The notes under the pieces are model-generated. The model had not been told where the DNA came from and did no database searches. It saw nothing but the letters and a program-made list of their open reading frames with translations. Shown here one piece after another: positions 18,431-55,335 of a DNA stretch of 64,000 nucleotides (within the stretch, counting starts at the first letter, position 1; every line of letters starts with the position of its first letter). Position numbers and translations under genes: made by a program. The stretch spans positions 2,903 through 66,902 of the IMG/VR virus record IMGVR_UViG_3300022413_000352, one strand, 5' to 3'. The DNA comes from a virus.

Positions 18431-19093
18431 TTACTCCGATCGCATAATAACCGTATTGAGATCGAGACCCAGCGTCAATTGCTGATGCGTGCCTGACTCA
18501 AAACTACGTGCATAATTATTGATAATGGCCATAAAGCCTTCATAAGTAGGCGTCGTCTCACTGTAAGCGTTGTTTTGTGCCCGAATCCAAACAGTACCCC
18601 GACCGTCTGCCAGTTTGGATAAACCTGATACCATGCCTTGAGTTGTGTCAGCAGGCAACCAATTAAGCACAATACTTCCAGATCCACTTACTGTGGTCGC
18701 AACCTTCTCTATGATACCCGTGCAATCGTCCAAAGATGGCGCTTCAGAGACGTTATAGGTTTGATCAAAGTTTAGCGTGGCCACTTCAGAAATTGTCGTC
18801 CAAGTGGTATTCATCCGCTGCACAGTGCCCGGCGTTACTAATGTGCCCGTAATGTTCCCGTTCACAATCGTGAGCGTATTGGCGTCTGCCGCTGTGCTCA
18901 CGATATGGTACGAGTTAAAATTAACCAGCCCCGTGCTACCCACCACTTGCACAATGTCACCAGGCGATGCCCCGATTGCAGTCGCCGCGATCGTCACAAT
19001 ACCCGCCGATGGCGTAGCAGTCGTAATCGCCACCGCTGTTTCACTCGTATCATCACCCAATTGAACCGCCACACATCCTGATCTGTACGCCAT
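18431..19093 (-). CDS. Major tail tube protein
   Basis: ATG at 19093 with GGAGG RBS; WTTISEVATL..SGSGSIVLNWLPADTTQ tail-tube pattern; position before chaperones. Confidence 0.75.
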   Translation of the reverse strand: MAYRSGCVAVQLGDDTSETAVAITTATPSAGIVTIAATAIGASPGDIVQVVGSTGLVNFNSYHIVSTAADANTLTIVNGNITGTLVTPGTVQRMNTTWTTISEVATLNFDQTYNVSEAPSLDDCTGIIEKVATTVSGSGSIVLNWLPADTTQGMVSGLSKLADGRGTVWIRAQNNAYSETTPTYEGFMAIINNYARSFESGTHQQLTLGLDLNTVIMRSE

Positions 19094-19501
19094 AATAACC
19101 TCCGGTGGACTGCCTGCTTTAGCTGGCAGGGGATAGGAGTTTGGAGCGAAGCTCCAATCTCGACTCAATCAAGCGTAAAAGTAATTGCCTCAACCACTTA
19201 TTTTCTGTATAATGCCCAACAATACGACAGCGTTAGACTCGGAGGTTGAAAGTACCACTTGTCGCTATACGCTGTGCGGCTCTTTCTAAAATAACTAGTG
19301 GGTTCCACGGCGTAGGGTCGTGGGTAAAAGTTATTCCGAAAAGTAGAGAAAACATCCTAAATGCTCCAGTGTGTGCTGCGCTTCGGCCTGGCCGCTGGTC
19401 CGATTTAGGGGCTCGGATCGAGCCTTGCGGAGCTAACGTAGCCTGATGTAAGGGCATGCCTTTCCGCAGAAGCCGCCTCATTTATGGGGTGGAGTGATCA
19501 C
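19094..19501 (+). mobile_element. Non-autonomous IS200/IS605-family element (no tnpA/tnpB) retaining both hairpin ends and an omegaRNA-like right end
   Basis: Left hairpin CTGCCTGC-TTTA-GCTGGCAG (19110-19129); right end GAAG + CCGCCTCAT-TT-ATGGGGTGG + TCAC; precise removal restores AGGAGATAAC-TGATG (RBS plus overlapping stop/start) on the minus strand. Confidence 0.75.
19185..19213 (+). promoter_or_regulatory. sigma70-type promoter inside the IS remnant, antisense to tail genes
   Basis: TTGCCT-17 bp-TATAAT. Confidence 0.6.
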
Positions 19502-19719
19502 CAGTTATCTCCTAAGTGTTCCGCGTCTACCTCACCAGGGTTGTCTTCTGCCACGATCACATCCACTTCAGCCCCAAACGGATCCAATATGCCAGTTCTC
19601 CGAGTTGGGTGACTGGCTTCATGTATCTTCATCACGCTCAAATGAGGCGATACGAACCGACAATGGCCACACGCATAGGAAATGTGCCCCCACATGCTAG
19701 TAACCGATGTAAAACTCAT
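19498..19719 (-). CDS. Small C2H2-like zinc-finger protein
   Basis: CGHC..HEASH; its stop codon is supplied by the IS right end. Confidence 0.55.
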   Translation of the reverse strand: MSFTSVTSMWGHISYACGHCRFVSPHLSVMKIHEASHPTRRTGILDPFGAEVDVIVAEDNPGEVDAEHLGDNW

Positions 19720-34572: not shown

Positions 34573-34767
34573 TTGGAACCACTACTAATCAGCGCTGATA
34601 AAGCATTCGAGTTGATCGGTGTTAAACGAGCTAAGGGCTACCAGATGATCAAGTCTGGCGAGTTACCCACGGTCAAAATTGGGAATCTTCACAAGGTATC
34701 CGTCGCACAGTTGAAGCAATGGGTACTTGATAGAACCGAAGCAATGGAAGGGGCACAACATGACTGA
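34573..34767 (+). CDS. Excisionase-like HTH DNA-binding protein
   Basis: LLISADKAFELIGVKRAKGYQMIKSGELPTVKIG..V...L.QW. Confidence 0.8.
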   Translation: MEPLLISADKAFELIGVKRAKGYQMIKSGELPTVKIGNLHKVSVAQLKQWVLDRTEAMEGAQHD

Positions 34768-35803
34768 GACAGCAGTAGCCACACGTGACAATGCAGTAAG
34801 CCAAATACCCGACCGAGTTCAGTCTGAGATATTACCGGCATTGATGAACGCCAAAGCGCTCAACCCGGCATTTGATGATCGAATGGTGACCTCATTCCAG
34901 GCGCACCTTGAGATGGCGTTTGCACAAGAGCCAAGACTTCGGGAATGCACGCCGATATCGATCTTTAAGGCGGTATCGAGCTGTATCATAAACGGGTTGC
35001 TGCCGACCCGAGACGCCCATCTGGTACCATTCGGTAAAGATGTTACCCTACTACCCGAAGCCAAGGGACTAGTTAAAGCATTGAAGCGTCACCCGGACAT
35101 CGTCGATTTCCAGACGGGCTTGGTTCACTCAGGTGATGAGTTCAGTGATGGGGCGATGTTTGAGGAACCGTATCATCGGAAAAGCCGCGATCCAAATCCT
35201 GGGAAGTTCCAAGGCTCTTACTGTGTCGTCTTGTTTAAAGATCGCCATAAAAAGTGTGAGTTCGTTTCAGCGATGCGACTCGACCAATTACGTAAGATGA
35301 GCCGTAGCGCGGACGGGCCAGCATGGAAAGGCAGTCCTGGTGAGATGCAGCGAGCCAAAGCAATCCAGGCATGGGTCTCACGATACGGGCATGAGTATCT
35401 ATCTCCCGACTTGATCCAACCGCTGATGGATGTGGAATCAGCACCGATCCAGCTTGAAGCGGTAACAGACGAGGAAGAGGCTGCGATGATCGAGAACTTG
35501 TTCGGGTCAAGCGACAAGGATGGATACCAGCATCCGGCAATGGCGCAAATCCAAAATATCCCGACACCATCATGGCCTGTGGAAGAGCCGGAGCCGGAGA
35601 GACTAGAAGCCGACATATCAGAGGCGGAGCACCAAGCCGCAATCGATCAGATCGAATGCCTCAGAACACTTTACAAGTTCGAGACACGGCGCATGACCGC
35701 AGCTATCAAATTGTATGGGAAGGACACGGTTGATGAGCTGACGTATGCTGAGAAATTGAAACTAATTAAATCGATGTCTCAAGCTGGAGATACCCCACAA
35801 TAA
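34760..35803 (+). CDS. recT: RecT-family ssDNA annealing protein
   Basis: PRLRECTPISIF..GLLP..AHLVPFG..VHSGDEF..GPAW..EMQRAKAI. Confidence 0.8.
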   Translation: MTETAVATRDNAVSQIPDRVQSEILPALMNAKALNPAFDDRMVTSFQAHLEMAFAQEPRLRECTPISIFKAVSSCIINGLLPTRDAHLVPFGKDVTLLPEAKGLVKALKRHPDIVDFQTGLVHSGDEFSDGAMFEEPYHRKSRDPNPGKFQGSYCVVLFKDRHKKCEFVSAMRLDQLRKMSRSADGPAWKGSPGEMQRAKAIQAWVSRYGHEYLSPDLIQPLMDVESAPIQLEAVTDEEEAAMIENLFGSSDKDGYQHPAMAQIQNIPTPSWPVEEPEPERLEADISEAEHQAAIDQIECLRTLYKFETRRMTAAIKLYGKDTVDELTYAEKLKLIKSMSQAGDTPQ

Positions 35804-42969: not shown

Positions 42970-43427
42970 TACGGTATCTGATTCTCATTCTAGGCGTACT
43001 CGCTTTAATGCCAGCTTGTGCCAAGTACAATACTCATCTTGGGCGGGTGAATCACGACAACAGCCCATTCACGTCGTCACAACAGGGCGCTGCAAGCGTG
43101 TCGTACGGCGGTGCGCCTATCAATATCGTGCCCCAATTGGTTTTGCCCATTACTCGTACTGTTTGGATCAAAGGGCATCGACGCCCGAATGGCGATTACG
43201 TAGGTGATTACCCCCTGACAATCGTATTTACACAGGGGCAATTTGAGCACGTACAGAAACAGAACCCAGTCATTCCGCAATCTATTTCACTAGCTGATGG
43301 TTACCACGAACCAGGCAAGGCAATAACGGATCGCCTACCGACTATGACGTTACCTACAGGTGCCCAGTTACAGGGTGTCATTGAAGCCACCAAATCGCGA
43401 TTAGGGGCTGCCAATGATACCAAGTAA
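42966..43427 (+). CDS. TraV-like lipoprotein
   Basis: LMPAC lipobox; TVWIKGHRRPNGDYV resembles the TraV RVWI..GD motif. Confidence 0.65.
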   Translation: MIRYLILILGVLALMPACAKYNTHLGRVNHDNSPFTSSQQGAASVSYGGAPINIVPQLVLPITRTVWIKGHRRPNGDYVGDYPLTIVFTQGQFEHVQKQNPVIPQSISLADGYHEPGKAITDRLPTMTLPTGAQLQGVIEATKSRLGAANDTK

Positions 43428-45840
43428 TATGTTGCTACCCTATGGCACGATGCTGGACGACAAAGGTATTGTGTTGCTTCACAGACCTGCTAAGTTTGGA
43501 CCGCTTAGCCGATTTGCCTTAGGTTGTGTGTTTGAGGTAACGCCCCTGGATATCGATCTACTTTCAGAAAGCGAAGTGGAACGAGCAGCGGCAGACGTCA
43601 AAGCGCTTATCTTAAACTTGAAGCCGTCGGCAATCCTAGACGTACGGTTGGATATGCGCCCCATTACGAACGTTCCGGCATGGGACAAGGCTCACGAAAC
43701 GCAGCATGATCCCGATACACAGCTTGTGCGTGAGCACATTGCCAATGGGATGCCCCACACGCCAGGCGCTAGCCCGATGCGGCTTACTGAGTGTAAAGTG
43801 ACGATTGGCTACCGCTACCCTCTTAAAGGCAATACCCGGCAGATACGCCAAATCTTAGACGTCCTAGCTCAGATTAAACCGTGGGGTAATGCGGCAGCGG
43901 CAACGGTATTGAAAGAGCGCCTAGAAGCCGAGTTTAACGAACAGCTTGTGGCGTTTGAATCCACAGTTACCGGTATCGAGAGATCCTTGCGCCTATTGGA
44001 TCTTACCCCGGTTCGACTGGATGGTACTGGGCTTATCAGTGCACTCAACCGGGCGGCGGGGCCAGATGCGACAGCGCCCACTGTGTACGACCCGGATATG
44101 AGTATTGGTGAGCAAATACATGTACCGTACGATCTGGGTGATACAACTATAAAAACGGTCAATCATACCGCTACCGTCTACACGTTAGAGCGCAGTGCAG
44201 CCGATGCGTTTGCTGGCATTCTGGGCGCATGTCGCACGCCTGAGGTAAATGTACACGGGTTGCCACTCGGTGAATTGGGTACACCGCTCTCCATTGCAGT
44301 GACAATCATGGTTAAGGATCAAGCCAGGAAGCGTACCACGTTATCGCTCAAGCACAGTCTAGCAAACTTGCTCAAGGTGGGTGGGCTGGGTGAAGAACGG
44401 AAAGACGCTGAACAGCAAGTAGACGCTCTCGGTGAACTCATTGCAGCCATGGCAGACGGTAGTGAGCAAGTACACGACGCGATGGTAAGTGCAGTGCTGT
44501 GGACCCGAAATGGTGAGACCCTCACTGATAGTCTATTTCAGAAAATGTCGTTGGACATGGCGATACACTGGTATAAAGAGCCGTTTATCGCCAGCACGTT
44601 ATTCTTACGTGGTTTACCGATTGGGTGTGATCCCGGCTTTCCAAATGAAAACTTCGTGCGTCGCTCACGTCAGATTGCGACTCGTACACTTGCCCGCTTA
44701 GTGCCGCTGTGGGGCGCATTCCAGGGAAGCCGAACCCCAACCGCGCTTTATGTGAACCGTCGCGGCGAGCCTGTGTTCTTTGATTTGTTCGATCGCACGG
44801 GTACCCCTCATATGACGATTGTGGGCAAGTCCCGGCGGGGAAAGTCAGCTTTTCTCAATACCTATATTAATCAGATTAGCCCGGACGACTACCTCGTCTA
44901 TATTCTTGATCGATATGGCTCATACGACGAAATGGCACGCCGTCGAAAGGGTAAGCTGGTTAAGTTTAACGCCACAACTCCAATTTGTATTGGTCCTATG
45001 GAAGGCGCTTTAGACGCACGCCACTGTCAGCATATGGCAATGATTATTGAAGAAATGGCAATGGCAGGCTTTCAGGATCAACACGTAAGCCCGGACGAAC
45101 GAACGCTGATTGGTAATTACATTCAAGACTGGGCGCTCAAGGGGCCGACAGCTCAAACCATGTCTGACTTTGTGGCGTACTTAGGCAGCAATGGTGATAC
45201 ATTTGCCAGACAGCTACAACTACTACTAGGTCCGTATATCAAGGATGGACGGTATGCCCCGTTTATCGACGGACCCAATCAATTGGGCATTGCCGACAGC
45301 TCGTTTTGGGTAGCGGATATCGCCGGATTAGAGGACTTTCCCGAACTACAGTCGATCATTATCGCATCTCTATTTACCTCACTTGAGCGGCATATCACAA
45401 ACTCGGATCTAATGAATATCCGTAAAATTCTCGCAGCCGATGAGGTGTCTTTCCTGATACGCAACCCACAGGCGGCAGAGTTCTTGCGCAAGTTGGCTGT
45501 TGCTCTGGCGCGGTTTTTTGCGTCGTTTGTCCTGATCTCACAATCGATGAGTGATTTTTTAACCGATCTGGGATCAGCCGCTGTAAAGATGAGTGATACC
45601 CATATCTTTTTTAACCTTGGACGACAAGAGCTTCATGAAATATCCGAAGTTTTTAAGCTGTCGGAGCACACGGCTGACTCAATTGTAAGCCTGCGTAAAT
45701 ATGAGGATTGTTCAGAGTGTGTCATCCGCTTTGAAGAAGGTGAAGGCGGTGCGGGAATCATTCGCGTGGTACCGCCACCCGAGTTTATCCAAGCCATAGG
45801 GCAATCTGAAGCCCATAGAGCGGCCAGAGGAGTTGTCTGA
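43414..45840 (+). CDS. traC: VirB4/TraC conjugative ATPase
   Basis: NRRGEPVFFDLF; Walker A GKSRRGKS; ILDRYGSY; Walker B ILAADE; ISQSMSDF. Confidence 0.9.
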   Translation: MIPSNMLLPYGTMLDDKGIVLLHRPAKFGPLSRFALGCVFEVTPLDIDLLSESEVERAAADVKALILNLKPSAILDVRLDMRPITNVPAWDKAHETQHDPDTQLVREHIANGMPHTPGASPMRLTECKVTIGYRYPLKGNTRQIRQILDVLAQIKPWGNAAAATVLKERLEAEFNEQLVAFESTVTGIERSLRLLDLTPVRLDGTGLISALNRAAGPDATAPTVYDPDMSIGEQIHVPYDLGDTTIKTVNHTATVYTLERSAADAFAGILGACRTPEVNVHGLPLGELGTPLSIAVTIMVKDQARKRTTLSLKHSLANLLKVGGLGEERKDAEQQVDALGELIAAMADGSEQVHDAMVSAVLWTRNGETLTDSLFQKMSLDMAIHWYKEPFIASTLFLRGLPIGCDPGFPNENFVRRSRQIATRTLARLVPLWGAFQGSRTPTALYVNRRGEPVFFDLFDRTGTPHMTIVGKSRRGKSAFLNTYINQISPDDYLVYILDRYGSYDEMARRRKGKLVKFNATTPICIGPMEGALDARHCQHMAMIIEEMAMAGFQDQHVSPDERTLIGNYIQDWALKGPTAQTMSDFVAYLGSNGDTFARQLQLLLGPYIKDGRYAPFIDGPNQLGIADSSFWVADIAGLEDFPELQSIIIASLFTSLERHITNSDLMNIRKILAADEVSFLIRNPQAAEFLRKLAVALARFFASFVLISQSMSDFLTDLGSAAVKMSDTHIFFNLGRQELHEISEVFKLSEHTADSIVSLRKYEDCSECVIRFEEGEGGAGIIRVVPPPEFIQAIGQSEAHRAARGVV

Positions 45841-50656: not shown

Positions 50657-50999
50657 TGTGAACCCAATACAAGCCATATTCACAGAGAAATACAGCCACC
50701 TAGTAGCTCTCTCAGGCGCACGACTCACGCTGCTTATCCCTTACCTGTGGTTCTTGTTACTTGTGGTTATCGTCGGTGGATACGAGGGCAATGACTGGCG
50801 CAGACAACGACTTTATGCGGGCTACTACCGCTTGATCTTAGCCACTGCCACCATACTCTTTGTGGGTATGCTAGTCGCACTCGGAGCATGGTTAATTATG
50901 CCCAGTCTGATGCAGCCACACATAACAGCCATTGGCTTAGCTGTAATCGGGTTTGCACTCGGTTGGACAGCAATGGCTGGGCGTCCGGTAATGAGGTAA
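50646..50999 (+). CDS. Conjugation-associated membrane protein (DUF4400-like)
   Basis: Three TM segments; GGYEG..RR; directly upstream of traD. Confidence 0.45.
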   Translation: MGTNVNPIQAIFTEKYSHLVALSGARLTLLIPYLWFLLLVVIVGGYEGNDWRRQRLYAGYYRLILATATILFVGMLVALGAWLIMPSLMQPHITAIGLAVIGFALGWTAMAGRPVMR

Positions 51000-51001
51000 A
51001 A

Positions 51002-52789
51002 ATGTCCATTACAATCCCGTTTCCCAATCGTCAACTGTTAATCGAGTTTGGCTTTATCATTGCAGTGTGTGCGATCGCATTCATAGTTGTACTGCCGATG
51101 CTCGATGTCTTTCCTTACGGACATGCATTCTTCATTGCTTGGCTATTCTGGAGAGCACACTGGGTCGCTAAACAACTACTGATGCGCGGTAGCTGGATGA
51201 ACCCGCAATCAGCCAAACCGTTACCCGTTAAACCCAACCCAAATGGCATTGTACTCGGCGATGGTTTTACTTGGACAGGTGACCACGTGGACGCTATTCA
51301 GCGCTATGTGCATGTCGCCAAATCGCTACCACAAGATGATGGTAAGCGCGGTGGATCGCCTGCGATTCACGGCTGCGGTTCTCACCGCGATCGCTCAGTC
51401 ATTTTGCCCTATGAACGGCTGCGTAGTCACGTGGCTATTGAGGGCTCAACCCAGAGCGGAAAGACGGTGCTACTCGCCAACATGATTAGCCAAGCCATTG
51501 CGATTAACCAGGGTGCGGTAGTTATCATGGATCCAAAAGGTAGCGATCAGCTCTACTACACGGCAAAGGCAATGGCTGAACGCTGTGGGCGCAAGTTCGC
51601 GTTAATTCGCCCGCGAACACCCTTGCTTAGTTCTCGGTTTAACGTGTTATCGTCATGCGAGGAAGCTGTTGATATGCCGGGGCGGTTGCGCCCGATCTTC
51701 CCTGAAGGCCGTGAAGCGTATTTCAAGGAAGAACCGTTATCCATTTGGCTGAGAGTCGCTGCTATGCACAAGGCGCTGGGGATCACATGGGATATTCGCG
51801 ATATCCATAACGCCGTGATGGATTTAGACACGCTACGCTGGACACTGGCGCAGTATATGGCGCTCAAAGGCATTGGCTTTAGAGGATTACGCCGTACAGA
51901 TATGCCCGACGTTGATATGCTGAAAAATAAGTATGTCGAGATGGGAAAAGACGATCCGTTAATTCCCGGTATTCTGCGGCCGCTAACCCGTAAACAAGAA
52001 ACTCATCAAGAGCGCTGCGGCAACTTAGACGTCGCGCTTAGTGGTGTGGTGGACATCGAGCACGCTGAAATATTTGGAGCACAAGACGCACTCACTTGGC
52101 GGGACATTGACGAGGGCAACATGGTTGTAATCTTTCGCACCGATTCACTCGTCACCCAACAGATCGGGCGCAACATCGCGTCTCTGTTCTTCCAGGATTT
52201 CATGGGCTATATGGGGCTGCGGTACCTCACGAGCGGAACCAGTCGTATTCCAATTACAATGTTCGTTGATGAAGTTGGCGAGATCGTTTATCCCGACTTT
52301 CGGCAAGCAATCAATAAGGTGGGTGAGGCCGGTGGGCGTCTTATCCTCACATGGCAAACTAAATCCGATCTGGATGCCACGCTTGGGAAGTTCCAGGCGG
52401 ATGTGATCCGGGCGAATTGTCAATCGCGGATCACCATGCGGATTGCGGATGATGAGACCGCCGATATTCTATCGAGACAATCACCTAAAGTTCGAGTAAC
52501 TCGGCTTACAGGTAACCGATCCATGTTGATGGGATCAAACTCTGGTAAGGGTATATCTGTCGAGCACGAGGATGTGCCTCTACTCGAAGCAAACATTTTA
52601 CAAGGGCAACAGGTAGGGCAAGGATTCTTCAGATTAGATGGATCGCTATTCCATTTTAATATTCCATTTTCTGAAAGTGAGGTACCCAATGACTCAACGC
52701 CTACTAATAGTTTTAGTTACTCTATTTGTACTCAGTGCTTGCAGTGGCTCAGGTGGTTTGGACGATCAAGACTTTCCTCAAACTCGTGA
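51002..52789 (+). CDS. traD: Type IV coupling protein (TraD)
   Basis: N-terminal TMs; LGDGFTW..GSPAIHG; Walker A GSTQSGKT; IMDPKG; FVDEVGE..INKVGEAG..WQTKSDL. Confidence 0.88.
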   Translation: MSITIPFPNRQLLIEFGFIIAVCAIAFIVVLPMLDVFPYGHAFFIAWLFWRAHWVAKQLLMRGSWMNPQSAKPLPVKPNPNGIVLGDGFTWTGDHVDAIQRYVHVAKSLPQDDGKRGGSPAIHGCGSHRDRSVILPYERLRSHVAIEGSTQSGKTVLLANMISQAIAINQGAVVIMDPKGSDQLYYTAKAMAERCGRKFALIRPRTPLLSSRFNVLSSCEEAVDMPGRLRPIFPEGREAYFKEEPLSIWLRVAAMHKALGITWDIRDIHNAVMDLDTLRWTLAQYMALKGIGFRGLRRTDMPDVDMLKNKYVEMGKDDPLIPGILRPLTRKQETHQERCGNLDVALSGVVDIEHAEIFGAQDALTWRDIDEGNMVVIFRTDSLVTQQIGRNIASLFFQDFMGYMGLRYLTSGTSRIPITMFVDEVGEIVYPDFRQAINKVGEAGGRLILTWQTKSDLDATLGKFQADVIRANCQSRITMRIADDETADILSRQSPKVRVTRLTGNRSMLMGSNSGKGISVEHEDVPLLEANILQGQQVGQGFFRLDGSLFHFNIPFSESEVPNDSTPTNSFSYSICTQCLQWLRWFGRSRLSSNS

Positions 52790-54174: not shown

Positions 54175-55335
54175 TTAGCTAGTCGGATAAACCCTCACGG
54201 CCATTTTCTCGTTGAGGACTTTCACGCCGTAGAAAACATCGAGGACCATAACCTCACGACTGAGAGCGCCGTCCAGGTATCGCCACGCTCTTACCGACAT
54301 GCCTGACTGAGGATCTACAGCGGTAAAACTATTTGCCGCTACAGACGGTCCTGGAAGGTTAGCGAAAGCGATCGCCATACTATGTTCGTGGAACATGAGC
54401 GAGTTCAGACGACCGGCTGTATCCACGTAGTCCGTAAACGTAACAACCGGATCGCCAGTCGTAGCCACTGCCAGAGGTGGACTGAACGTAATAGTAAGGG
54501 AAGTGGTTGCAACGGTGGCGTCAGCCGTTAGCACGTAGCGCGTTGTATCACCTGCGATTGCGAAGTTGTCACCCTTTTTAAACGCTTGGGTATCCGTCAT
54601 GGCAGCCACAACCATAGTGGTCGCTCCTGCCGCCGTGTCCGGTGCTGTTCCAGCCACATCACCGCCACCGCTACCAGTCCCGGGGGTAAATGTCGGTACT
54701 TGTTGGCTACTGAAAACCTCAGTATTGAAACGAGTGCCCAGAGTACCACGCATCAACGGACCTGTTGCAGCCGCACCCGCGTTGTTCTGGCTTGACCAAA
54801 ACGGCGCTTTGAGCATGGAAGCTTCCATTTGGGAATCGATCATGTAATGGAAACGACCGGGCTCGTCGATATCCACCGCGTTATCGCGAAGGATTTTACG
54901 GGGCAGTAGAATCTCATCTTCATCGATATTCGCTGAGGCGTAACCGTGAACGTAGGGAATATCAAGATAGAGATCGCGTAGTGAGGTATCGATTGCCAAA
55001 CCCAACGCATAAGCCGCAGGAGCGATATGATCTTGAATCACTGACTCGCCCGTGATCGCTAATTCGTTATGAGGCACGGCAAACCGCACTTCTTTAAACT
55101 GATCGATTACAATATTGATCGAACTCGGCGTGAGATCAACCACGCTGCCAGGGGCGGATTGCGCTGTGAACGTTCCGGGCTTGCGAATCTGGATCGTATC
55201 GCCAAGATTGACCGCACGACGTTCGAGGTCATAACCACGATGCACACGCGCTGCCATGCCTAAAACATTACGTAAATGTCTTAGAGATTCCATGGCGTAG
55301 AATATAGGATTATAGGGCGAAATTGTATTTGCCAT
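54175..55335 (-). CDS. Major capsid protein (P22 coat-like)
   Basis: MAN..LRNVLGMA..V.R.Y..GDTIQIRKP; IAPAAYAL..ID; FHEHSMAIA; DVFYGVK. Confidence 0.88.
   Translation of the reverse strand: MANTISPYNPIFYAMESLRHLRNVLGMAARVHRGYDLERRAVNLGDTIQIRKPGTFTAQSAPGSVVDLTPSSINIVIDQFKEVRFAVPHNELAITGESVIQDHIAPAAYALGLAIDTSLRDLYLDIPYVHGYASANIDEDEILLPRKILRDNAVDIDEPGRFHYMIDSQMEASMLKAPFWSSQNNAGAAATGPLMRGTLGTRFNTEVFSSQQVPTFTPGTGSGGGDVAGTAPDTAAGATTMVVAAMTDTQAFKKGDNFAIAGDTTRYVLTADATVATTSLTITFSPPLAVATTGDPVVTFTDYVDTAGRLNSLMFHEHSMAIAFANLPGPSVAANSFTAVDPQSGMSVRAWRYLDGALSREVMVLDVFYGVKVLNEKMAVRVYPTS

What the first reader, a model, noticed from the sequence alone, without database searches (positions are those of the whole stretch)
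19094..19501. Protein-less IS200/IS605 (TnpB-type) element inserted exactly at the tail-tube start codon, keeping a promoter and omegaRNA-like end
Seen: deleting 19094-19501 joins CAC TTA GGA GAT AAC TG to ATG GCG, giving an AGGAG RBS and a TGATG stop/start overlap. The element supplies a replacement GGAGG RBS to the tail tube gene and a replacement stop to the upstream gene. It has subterminal hairpins at both ends, GAAG at the foot of the right hairpin, a TCAC terminus, a TTGCCT-17-TATAAT promoter, further internal stems (including a CTTCGG-loop hairpin), and a peptide remnant NIL..ARIEPCGANV that resembles TnpB C-termini as I recall them. Known: TnpB omegaRNA comes from the right end and its guide from the flank. 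Inference: the RNA would carry guide CAGTTATCTCCTAAG with TAM CCAT, directing a trans-acting TnpB against element-free relatives of this phage, or would act as an antisense RNA.
Basis: partly seen in the sequence, partly recalled or inferred. Interest (0 to 1): 0.72.

Follow-up and report, generated by a model that had tools for sequence, protein, structure and literature searches.

The report
Gene-less IS605 mini-transposon at tail-tube start
A 408-base, protein-less jumping element of the IS200/IS605 family, carrying its own promoter and a folded guide-RNA-like gene, sits exactly in front of a phage tail-tube gene's start codon; this kind of element is already known, and this one is a new member with an extra RNA domain.

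Summary
Window 19094-19501 is a discrete insertion between a 73-aa gene and the tail-tube gene. Its two ends are homologous to those of complete IS200/IS605 elements found elsewhere, one of which carries a Y1 transposase (TnpA) and TnpB. The left end abuts CCAT, which is the reverse complement of the tail-tube ATGG. CCAT stands in that place in 20 of 23 distinct left ends of this type. The right end finishes in ...GGAGTnnTCAC in all 14 right ends first compared, followed by unrelated DNA.

The last ~95 nt match the 3' end of tnpB-bearing copies and share a covarying fold with them. Upstream of that lie a conserved promoter and a 147-nt structured RNA domain (my model R1) with strong covariation. 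R1 occurs only in gene-less copies. I found it in 24 copies, in three bacterial genomes and nine viral records.

About half of the copies examined sit at start codons of long ORFs. In each, the reverse complement of the left end supplies a Shine-Dalgarno-like motif.

Use of the RNA by a TnpB in trans is untested. Protein-less IS605 derivatives that encode omegaRNAs are already in print, so this is a new member of a known kind.

The parts
19090..19093 (+). CCAT target motif (TAM) next to the left end. Its reverse complement, ATGG, holds the tail-tube start codon.
   Evidence: CCAT lies 14-17 nt 5' of the left hairpin in 20 of 23 distinct left ends of this hairpin type. The flanks upstream of it are unrelated.
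19094..19501 (+). The whole protein-less IS200/IS605-family element (408 bp).
   Evidence: It is a single copy in its own record. Homologous copies lie at other sites in genomes G001, G008, G009 and G011 and in IMG/VR records. The left boundary is known to within about 2 nt.
19094..19161 (+). Left end. It has an outer stem (CCTCC 19099-19103 with GGAG 19138-19141), a subterminal hairpin (19108-19129) and a second hairpin (19137-19161). On the - strand it reads GGAGGTTATT|ATG, giving the tail-tube gene a Shine-Dalgarno motif.
   Evidence: Searches show the stems. They covary between copies, for example CCTCC..GGAG against CTTTCG..CGAAAG. The left and right hairpins resemble each other.
19185..19213 (+). 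Sigma-70-like promoter TTGCCT-17-TATAAT, pointing towards the right end.
   Evidence: A -10-like hexamer lies 5-10 nt before the RNA domain in 22 of 24 copies.
19221..19362 (+). R1, a 147-position structured RNA domain found only in gene-less copies.
   Evidence: The covariance model scores 147.8 bits here, but this window sequence was one of the three seeds. On 15 copies, 91.7% of cells pair and 25 of 33 pairs change on both sides. 0 of 500 shuffles reach this, and slid controls pair 30-53%.
19363..19408 (+). Variable hairpin region, which includes the CTTCGG loop.
   Evidence: Folds are. Length and sequence differ between copies.
19409..19501 (+). 3' RNA core and right end, shared with tnpB-bearing elements. 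It contains hairpin GGCTC..GAGCC, a long-range stem, GAAG (19469-19472), the right hairpin (~19472-19493) and the terminal TCAC (19498-19501).
   Evidence: The alignment with three tnpB-bearing copies has 80% mean column identity. 15 of 27 predicted pairs show compensatory change across 10 copies, 6 of them tnpB-bearing.
19403..19441 (+). Decayed last codons of tnpB, reading I*GLGSSLAELT*.
   Evidence: compared with IQGLGRSLVGLT* in L044.
19502..19517 (+). Flank that would be the guide part of a read-through RNA (CAGTTATCTCCTAAGT).
   Evidence: The position follows the TnpB omegaRNA rule (established knowledge; Meers et al., PMC10055086). It occurs once in the window at up to 3 mismatches.
18431..19093 (-). 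Tail tube gene (220 aa).
19498..19719 (-). 73-aa ORF (weak C2H2-like match). Its last codon is completed, and its stop codon supplied, by the right end of the element.
   Evidence: Pfam E 0.0074, below the cut-off.

Best explanation
Window 19094-19501 is a non-autonomous, protein-less derivative of an IS200/IS605-family insertion sequence (a PATE-like mini-element).

Shown:
- It has this family's two similar subterminal hairpins on one strand.
- It has no terminal inverted repeats and no target duplication.
- A fixed motif (CCAT) lies beside the left end, and the right end has a fixed terminus (TCAC).
- Its ends are homologous to those of complete tnpA+tnpB and tnpB-only elements.
- It landed 3' of a CCAT that is the complement of the tail-tube ATGG. 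It therefore separates the gene from its old AGGAG ribosome site and puts a GGAGG from its own left end at the right distance.
- It carries a conserved outward promoter. Downstream of that come a covarying 147-nt RNA domain (R1), a variable hairpin, and a ~95-nt 3' core shared with the tnpB 3' ends of full elements.

Inferred:
- It was mobilised in trans as single-stranded DNA by a Y1 TnpA from a full element in the host or in another phage.
- The promoter makes an RNA of about 300 nt that runs through the right end into the flank.
- That RNA can load a TnpB supplied in trans as an omegaRNA with guide CAGTTATCTCCTAAG.... It would direct cutting of element-free CCAT|CAGTTATC sites, whether excised donor joints or co-infecting relatives. 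Recombination would then restore or spread the element.
For: Family membership:
- L014 from a MAG matches both ends (82% and 74%). It keeps an 87-aa TnpB zinc-ribbon remnant in the same orientation (PF07282, E 5e-14).
- G011 holds CCAT|LE-promoter-tnpA-tnpB-RE, with Y1_Tnp at E 1e-41 and a TnpB with three Pfam domains.
- The right hairpin of G011 differs from the window's at one base.
- All 14 right ends end in TCAC followed by unrelated flanks.
- CCAT is present at 20 of 23 left ends.
- Left and right hairpins resemble each other.

RNA:
- 3' core: 15 of 27 pairs compensatory across 10 copies, 6 of them tnpB-bearing.
- R1: 25 of 33 pairs change on both sides, and 0 of 500 shuffles reach the observed values.
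- Conserved U-G pairs put the fold on the window's + strand, which is the promoter's strand.
- 22 of 24 copies have a -10-like hexamer just upstream of R1.
- The single-sequence fold of 19221-19501 reproduces these helices.

Start-codon placement:
- 10 of 19 copies I could score have an ORF of at least 100 aa starting at the ATG opposite the CAT. The figure for all CCAT sites in the same loci is 184 of 849.
- A gene at one such copy (L104) has 40%-identical relatives that start at the same codon with no element.

Source of proteins in trans:
- A right-end pattern scan found 35 viral records. 16 hold a TnpB match and 9 a TnpA match.

Published model:
- PATEs often encode omegaRNAs that would be used in trans by TnpB (Meers et al., PMC10055086; passages read).
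Against: - No empty-site allele of this phage was seen. No relatives were found through the tail tube protein, no contig joins across the element in two runs, and the predicted empty-site 19-mer is absent from viral contigs.
- The window and its 66.9-kb record hold no tnpA or tnpB, so every protein must come in trans from an unknown host.
- R1 was found next to no tnpB. There were 0 hits in 6 family elements, even with filters off, 0 in 28 other TnpB loci, and 0 in 33 viral loci, 16 of which hold a TnpB match. A TnpB of this family therefore does not need R1, and R1's role is unexplained.
- There are no expression data.
- No Rfam family matches.
- The right-end tail in the window is GTGATCAC, against the commoner GTCGTCAC. 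One viral copy shares the window's form.
- The excess of start-codon placements is modest. It could arise from selection on where CCAT insertions are tolerated, not from targeting.
Confidence: 0.8

Rival explanations
1. The element is a real IS200/IS605 mini-transposon, but its RNA is not a TnpB guide. R1 would be a cargo or self-serving RNA with another role, for example stabilising the transcript, acting antisense on the upstream gene, or regulating transposase. Alternatively, this copy is simply an inert passenger in the phage.
For: - R1 is absent from all 50 TnpB-linked loci searched.
- The transcript would run antisense into the 73-aa gene.
- No tnpB lies in the record.
Against: - The 3' ~95 nt keep the fold shared with tnpB-bearing copies.
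- The promoter points through the right end in all copies. That is the omegaRNA arrangement.
- R1 is conserved across sub-families with different ends and different neighbours, so it does not serve one neighbouring gene.
Confidence: 0.3
2. The 408 bp are a cis-acting leader (riboswitch-like 5' UTR) of the tail-tube gene and of the other genes that follow it on the - strand.
For: In about half of the copies the element lies directly upstream of a start codon and contains the ribosome-binding motif. That motif can pair with an upstream CUCC.
Against: - Conserved U-G pairs place the fold on the opposite strand.
- The downstream genes are unrelated (tail tube, dehydrogenases and others), and 9 of 19 copies have no long ORF there.
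- The ends are those of elements that carry tnpA and tnpB.
Confidence: 0.03
3. The stretch is ordinary phage intergenic DNA, or the remnant of a decayed phage gene such as a homing endonuclease, with chance hairpins.
For: - Whole-insert folding energies are not unusual (z -1.5 and -1.3).
- One promoter-like site is what chance gives.
Against: - Homologous copies with the same two ends lie at unrelated sites in four bacterial genomes and in viral records.
- The covariation is strong.
- No ORF in it matches any family.
Confidence: 0.02

Closest known systems
PATEs (palindrome-associated transposable elements): protein-less IS200/IS605 derivatives of Haloquadratum (PMC3119063, passages read) and the PATE-like, omegaRNA-encoding mini-elements of Geobacillus stearothermophilus (Meers et al., PMC10055086, passages read)
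   Same: - Too short to encode a transposase.
- Near-terminal palindromes that resemble those of IS605-type elements.
- No inverted terminal repeats and no target duplication.
- A fixed terminal oligonucleotide.
- It retains the RNA-coding right end, which would have to be used in trans.
   Different: - It sits in a phage, in a tightly packed late operon.
- It carries a 147-nt covarying RNA domain (R1) that I could not find in any tnpB-bearing relative.
- The reverse complement of its left end supplies a ribosome-binding motif to the gene whose ATG is part of the target motif.
IS608 / ISDra2-type IS200/IS605 elements with Y1 TnpA and TnpB-omegaRNA (established knowledge, as described in PMC10055086)
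   Same: - Single-strand-type ends.
- Insertion 3' of a short motif (TTAC or TTGAT in those elements, CCAT here).
- A conserved right-end terminus.
- The omegaRNA region overlaps the tnpB 3' end and the right end.
- The full relatives found here encode both proteins.
   Different: - The window copy encodes neither protein.
- The motifs are CCAT and TCAC.
- No biochemical data exist for this sub-family.
IStrons (group I intron + IS200/IS605; bioRxiv 10.1101/2023.11.20.567912, abstract seen in search listing only)
   Same: It is a member of the same transposon family that lowers the cost of landing in or next to a gene.
   Different: IStrons splice themselves out of the mRNA. This element stays in the mRNA in antisense orientation and instead replaces the ribosome-binding site. 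No intron-like RNA was detected.

Membership tests
IS200/IS605 family (non-autonomous derivative, PATE) | Subterminal imperfect palindromes at both ends, on the same strand and similar to each other | tested here: met
   The left hairpin is 19108-19129 and the right hairpin is ~19472-19493. The two share a 16-nt core in relatives. Stems covary between sub-families.
IS200/IS605 family (non-autonomous derivative, PATE) | No terminal inverted repeats and no target-site duplication | tested here: met
   The ends are AATAACC... and ...GATCAC, and the flanks are ...GCCAT and CAGTTAT.... No duplicated flank is seen in the copies listed.
IS200/IS605 family (non-autonomous derivative, PATE) | Insertion 3' of a fixed short motif at the left end, and a fixed right-end terminus | tested here: met
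   CCAT is present at 20 of 23 left ends. TCAC ends 14 of 14 right ends. The left boundary is known only to about 2 nt.
IS200/IS605 family (non-autonomous derivative, PATE) | Ends homologous to those of elements encoding a Y1 (HUH) TnpA and/or TnpB | tested here: met
   L044 holds tnpA (Y1_Tnp, E 1e-41) and tnpB. L025 and L029 are tnpB-only. End similarity is shown.
IS200/IS605 family (non-autonomous derivative, PATE) | Too short to encode a transposase | tested here: met
   The element is 408 bp. Its ORFs of 66 and 82 aa have no family match. tblastn with TnpA and TnpB finds nothing significant in the window (best E 0.14 for TnpA, 3.8 for TnpB).
IS200/IS605 family (non-autonomous derivative, PATE) | Mobility: the same element at different sites, and an empty site | tested here: inconclusive
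   Copies lie at many unrelated sites. No empty-site allele of this phage was found. The only support is indirect, from 40%-identical relatives of another copy's neighbour gene.
IS200/IS605 family (non-autonomous derivative, PATE) | DNA-guide pairing between the bases 5' of each hairpin and the cleavage motifs | not tested
   GAAG 5' of the right hairpin is conserved. I did not work out its pairing with TCAC.
TnpB omegaRNA (right-end RNA) | Encoded at the right end, transcribed towards it, with the guide taken from the flank | tested here: met
   The promoter's orientation and position are conserved. Transcription itself was not tested.
TnpB omegaRNA (right-end RNA) | Scaffold homologous to the RNA region of tnpB-bearing relatives | tested here: inconclusive
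   This is met for the last ~95 nt. It is not met for the 147-nt R1 domain, which gave 0 hits in 50 TnpB-linked loci.
TnpB omegaRNA (right-end RNA) | Binds TnpB and directs motif-dependent DNA cleavage | not testable with these tools
   This needs biochemistry or a plasmid-interference assay.
Rfam RNA families | Match to a curated covariance model | tested here: not met
   There were 0 matches at gathering score over the whole window, and 0 at E up to 10 over 18900-19700.

The most novel reading that the evidence does not exclude
The R1-bearing mini-elements may be a distinct, RNA-only lineage of IS200/IS605 parasites that lives largely in phages and their hosts in one sparsely sampled bacterial phylum. 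The lineage would combine three things:

- A left end that works as a portable translation-initiation region. The element could then land on ATGG start codons inside packed operons without silencing the gene.
- Its own promoter.
- A guide RNA whose 5' domain (R1) evolved after loss of tnpB. R1 would stabilise the RNA or help it compete for TnpB made by other elements.

A phage carrying such an element would turn a resident TnpB against element-free competitor phages.
Probability: 0.2. Interest if true: 0.65.

Novelty: new member of a known kind. Interest (0 to 1): 0.42.

Why it matters
The finding shows a concrete, well-bounded example of a guide-RNA-only transposon inside a phage structural operon. 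It also comes with the full family around it: autonomous tnpA+tnpB copies, tnpB-only copies and several kinds of gene-less copies.

Two features could be tested directly.

- The left end supplies a ribosome-binding site to a gene whose start codon is part of the target motif. This would explain how such elements persist in gene-dense phage genomes.
- A strongly covarying RNA domain occurs only in the gene-less copies.

If the RNA is used by a TnpB in trans, phage-borne copies would act as homing or competition devices without encoding any protein. The idea exists in reviews (PMC13565253, Table 1, lists homing against co-infecting phages). I saw no experimental test of it for gene-less elements in the two literature searches I ran.

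Tried and rejected
RNA and protein family searches:
- Rfam gave no match at gathering score over the window, and none at E up to 10 over 18900-19700.
- No tRNA or tmRNA was found.
- Pfam and PHROGs on the two ORFs inside the element gave no family.
- PF07282 in the window's own record gave no match at E up to 1.

Relatives of the phage:
- The GenBank phage collection gave no DNA match to the element and no protein match to the tail tube.
- No related viral loci were found through the tail tube protein.
- A 24-nt and a 19-specified-base pattern gave no match in viral contigs.
- The predicted empty-site 19-mer has no exact match in viral contigs.

Pattern scans:
- The metagenome scan gave 10 stretches. 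By blastn, all matched only the ~22-25 nt pattern region, so they are probably chance matches.
- The genome scan gave 3 stretches, of which one (L014) is real.

Sequencing runs:
- No RNA holder was listed.
- The two DNA runs are held as contigs only. No contig joins across the element, and coverage has holes. Run X2 did hold two short contigs from other copies of the family, and that gave the lead to relatives.

R1 and TnpB:
- R1 next to tnpB gave 0 hits.
- I considered whether R1 derives from the TnpB zinc-ribbon codons. I rejected this because the spacing of the shared short motifs does not fit. That judgement was made by eye, not by a test.

Other points:
- Whole-insert folding z-scores are unremarkable.
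- Earlier notes of this scan, searched by place and by sequence, gave nothing.
The phylum of G001 holds only 17 genomes in the held set.

Full report
**What is there**

The window is part of a 66.9-kb IMG/VR virus record. On the - strand it carries a siphovirus-type tail module:
- a 161-aa ORF;
- a 73-aa ORF (19498-19719);
- a 408-bp gap;
- a 220-aa ORF (18431-19093);
- a tail assembly chaperone (phrog_344);
- a 781-aa tape-measure-size ORF.

The 220-aa protein is a tail tube protein, judged by position and by structure look-alikes (TM 0.56-0.74 over residues 3-219/220).

The tail-tube ATG is at 19093-19091, preceded by GGAGGTTATT from the insert. The 73-aa ORF ends AAC TGG TGA, with the last four bases coming from the insert. 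Without 19094-19501 the two genes would overlap as TGATG, with AGGAG 7 nt upstream.

**Finding relatives**

Rfam, the GenBank phage collection and a search for related viral loci gave nothing.

Two sediment runs hold the phage with the insert. Contigs cross the left junction in X2 and start inside the right end in X1. No contig joins the flanks.

Run X2 also held two short contigs that match parts of the insert in other surroundings. One has a compensatory variant of the second left hairpin. A pattern taken from that variant found L014, an 841-bp MAG contig that matches both ends of the insert. L014 holds an 87-aa remnant of the TnpB zinc-ribbon domain in the same orientation (PF07282, E 5e-14).

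Searching that MAG and its relatives gave further copies in 5 of 61 genomes.

**The family**

- Genome G011 has a complete element: CCAT, left end, promoter, tnpA (133 aa; Y1_Tnp, E 1e-41), tnpB (364 aa; OrfB_IS605, TNB and HTH domains) and a right end.
- G008 and G009 have tnpB-only copies.
- Gene-less copies of about 240 to 455 bp occur in G001 and G009.
- All 14 right ends first collected finish ...GGAGTnnTCAC and are followed by unrelated DNA.
- Among 23 distinct left ends with the GACTGCC-type hairpin, 20 have CCAT 14-17 nt upstream. The three exceptions have CAAT, TTAT and no clear motif.
- Left and right hairpins resemble each other. The outer stem of the left end covaries, for example CCTCC..GGAG against CTTTCG..CGAAAG.
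- A right-end pattern found 35 viral records. 16 hold a TnpB match and 9 a TnpA match by tblastn. Phages therefore often carry full members of this family.
- The window itself has neither gene.

These are the defining features of IS200/IS605 and of its protein-less PATE derivatives (PMC3119063, passages read).

**The RNA**

*The 3' core.* The last ~95 nt of the insert align with the 3' ends of tnpB-bearing copies at 80% mean column identity. They include the decayed last tnpB codons, I*GLGSSLAELT* against IQGLGRSLVGLT*. Across 10 copies, 6 of them tnpB-bearing, the predicted fold of this region has 15 of 27 pairs with compensatory change.

*The R1 domain.* Upstream, the gene-less copies of the window's type share a segment that does not align with tnpB. 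I modelled it as R1 (147 positions, 33 pairs) from three copies, including the window.
- R1 found 14 matches in 3 of the 17 genomes of G001's phylum.
- It found no match in any further genome among 151 relatives.
- It found 10 matches in 8 viral records that a motif scan had brought in. Two of those records (L099 and L105) are identical in this region, so I count 24 copies in nine viral records including the window's.
- On 15 copies, 91.7% of cells pair and 25 of 33 pairs change on both sides. 0 of 500 shuffles reach the observed values, and slid controls pair only 30-53%. That alignment was fitted to the model, which favours the structure; the size of the effect is nonetheless large.
- Conserved U-G pairs put the fold on the window's + strand.
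- A -10-like TAnAcT lies 5-10 nt before R1 in 22 of 24 copies. In the window it is part of TTGCCT-17-TATAAT.
- R1 was not found beside any tnpB. There were 0 hits in 6 family elements, also with filters off, 0 in 28 other TnpB loci of G009 and G001, and 0 in 33 viral loci.
- Indels between copies are not multiples of three, so R1 is not coding.

**Start codons**

I could place the left boundary by eye and had enough flank in 19 copies. I left out copies of other sub-families, degenerate copies, and copies with too little flank (L049, L050, L057, L059, L060, L062-L066, L068, L103 and the second copy in L102).

Of those 19, 10 have an ORF of at least 100 aa that starts at the ATG opposite the CAT. 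Of all CCAT sites in the same loci, 184 of 849 do. The genes are unrelated: tail tube, a short-chain dehydrogenase, an alcohol dehydrogenase and large phage proteins.

For one of them (L104), two 40%-identical relatives start at the same codon, about 10 nt after the previous gene's stop, with no element. This supports the ATG being native and the element having landed just in front of it.

In all 19 copies the reverse complement of the left end reads as a purine-rich Shine-Dalgarno-like motif (GGAGG, AAAGGGG, AAGGGA and similar) a few bases before the ATG. These are a few sub-family variants of one conserved sequence, not 19 independent events.

The excess at start codons is what one would expect if CCAT insertions inside genes are lost and those at ATGG are tolerated because the left end replaces the ribosome site. 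It does not show active targeting of gene starts. In the window's mRNA the GGAG can pair with an upstream CUCC in the minimum-energy fold but not in the centroid, so how well the tail-tube gene is translated is open.

**How it most likely works**

Shown: the element's identity, its boundaries (the left one to about 2 nt), the family motifs, a conserved promoter-like site, and two covarying RNA domains.

Inferred from the established mechanism of the family (as summarised in PMC10055086):
- A Y1 TnpA supplied in trans excises and inserts the element as single-stranded DNA 3' of CCAT.
- The promoter makes an RNA that ends in the flank.
- A TnpB supplied in trans uses that RNA to cut CCAT-flanked copies of the flank sequence. 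These are the empty sites left by excision or present in element-free relatives.
- Recombination then restores or spreads the element.

Meers et al. state that PATEs often encode omegaRNAs that must be used in trans. A 2026 review lists transposon homing against co-infecting phages or plasmids as a category (PMC13565253). The guide 16-mer occurs only once in the window, so the phage would not target itself elsewhere.

**What is unexplained**

Why do the gene-less copies carry R1, a domain that no tnpB-bearing relative has? Possible answers are an RNA-stabilising or TnpB-competing 5' domain that evolved after loss of tnpB, or a cargo RNA with its own role.

**Earlier notes of this scan**

Notes from other genomes describe the same kind of element in front of start codons in other phages and archaea. 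One attributes the placement to a CATG-like target motif. These are unchecked leads from other genomes. They agree with my reading and lower the novelty.

**Verdict**

The finding is a new member of a known kind, with two testable twists: the ribosome site supplied by the left end, and the R1 domain.

Noticed in passing
window 43414-45840 and 50888-52789 (+): A virus record that encodes a TraG/VirB4-like P-loop ATPase (PF19044, E 9e-17) and a VirD4/TraD-type coupling protein (PF12696, PF10412, PF02534). The same record has a P22-type coat protein (54175-55335) and RecT (34727-35803). Conjugation-type genes in a tailed-phage record may indicate a phage-plasmid or a hybrid element.
   Followed up: no
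whole window: GCGATCGC occurs 7 times, against 1.1 expected from shuffles, and 0 of 100 shuffles reach 7. Its meaning for the host is unclear. The element's relatives lie in a phylum with only 17 genomes in the held set.
   Followed up: partly
genome handle G009 (6.0 Mb): At least 150 matches to the TnpB TNB domain (PF07282) in one 6-Mb genome, plus 11 R1 mini-elements. This is an extreme load of TnpB elements.
   Followed up: no
L016 about 1545-1600; also G001 contigs C569, C352, C35, C4, C317, C122, C253 and C145: The copy in G001:C166 has an insertion of about 42 nt inside its second left-end hairpin. A 24-29-nt part of that insertion recurs at nine other places on eight contigs of G001. 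This recalls the small repeats that target PATE palindromes in Haloquadratum (PMC3119063). The left hairpin of the G011 element also carries an insertion.
   Followed up: no
L104 9400-10502 (-) and 2799-3084 (-): One viral record holds both an R1 mini-element and a distant TnpB (26% identity to the family TnpB). That TnpB's right hairpin has the same loop (AGACCGTAGGTT) as the mini-element's but a different stem and a different terminus (GTCAA against GTCAC).
   Followed up: partly
L098 3144-3291 and 4607-4751: Two R1 mini-elements with different end hairpins lie 1.3 kb apart in one 6.7-kb viral record.
   Followed up: no
L062, L065, L066, L067 (G009): A sister sub-family of R1 mini-elements has different end hairpins and TTAC directly before a CAC/CAT at the left boundary. 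This suggests a TTAC-type target motif like that of IS608.
   Followed up: no
window 19498-19719 (-): A 73-aa ORF with a CxxC...HxxxxH pattern and a weak C2H2 zinc-finger match (E 0.0074, below the Pfam cut-off) sits between the tail-completion-like genes and the tail tube gene.
   Followed up: no
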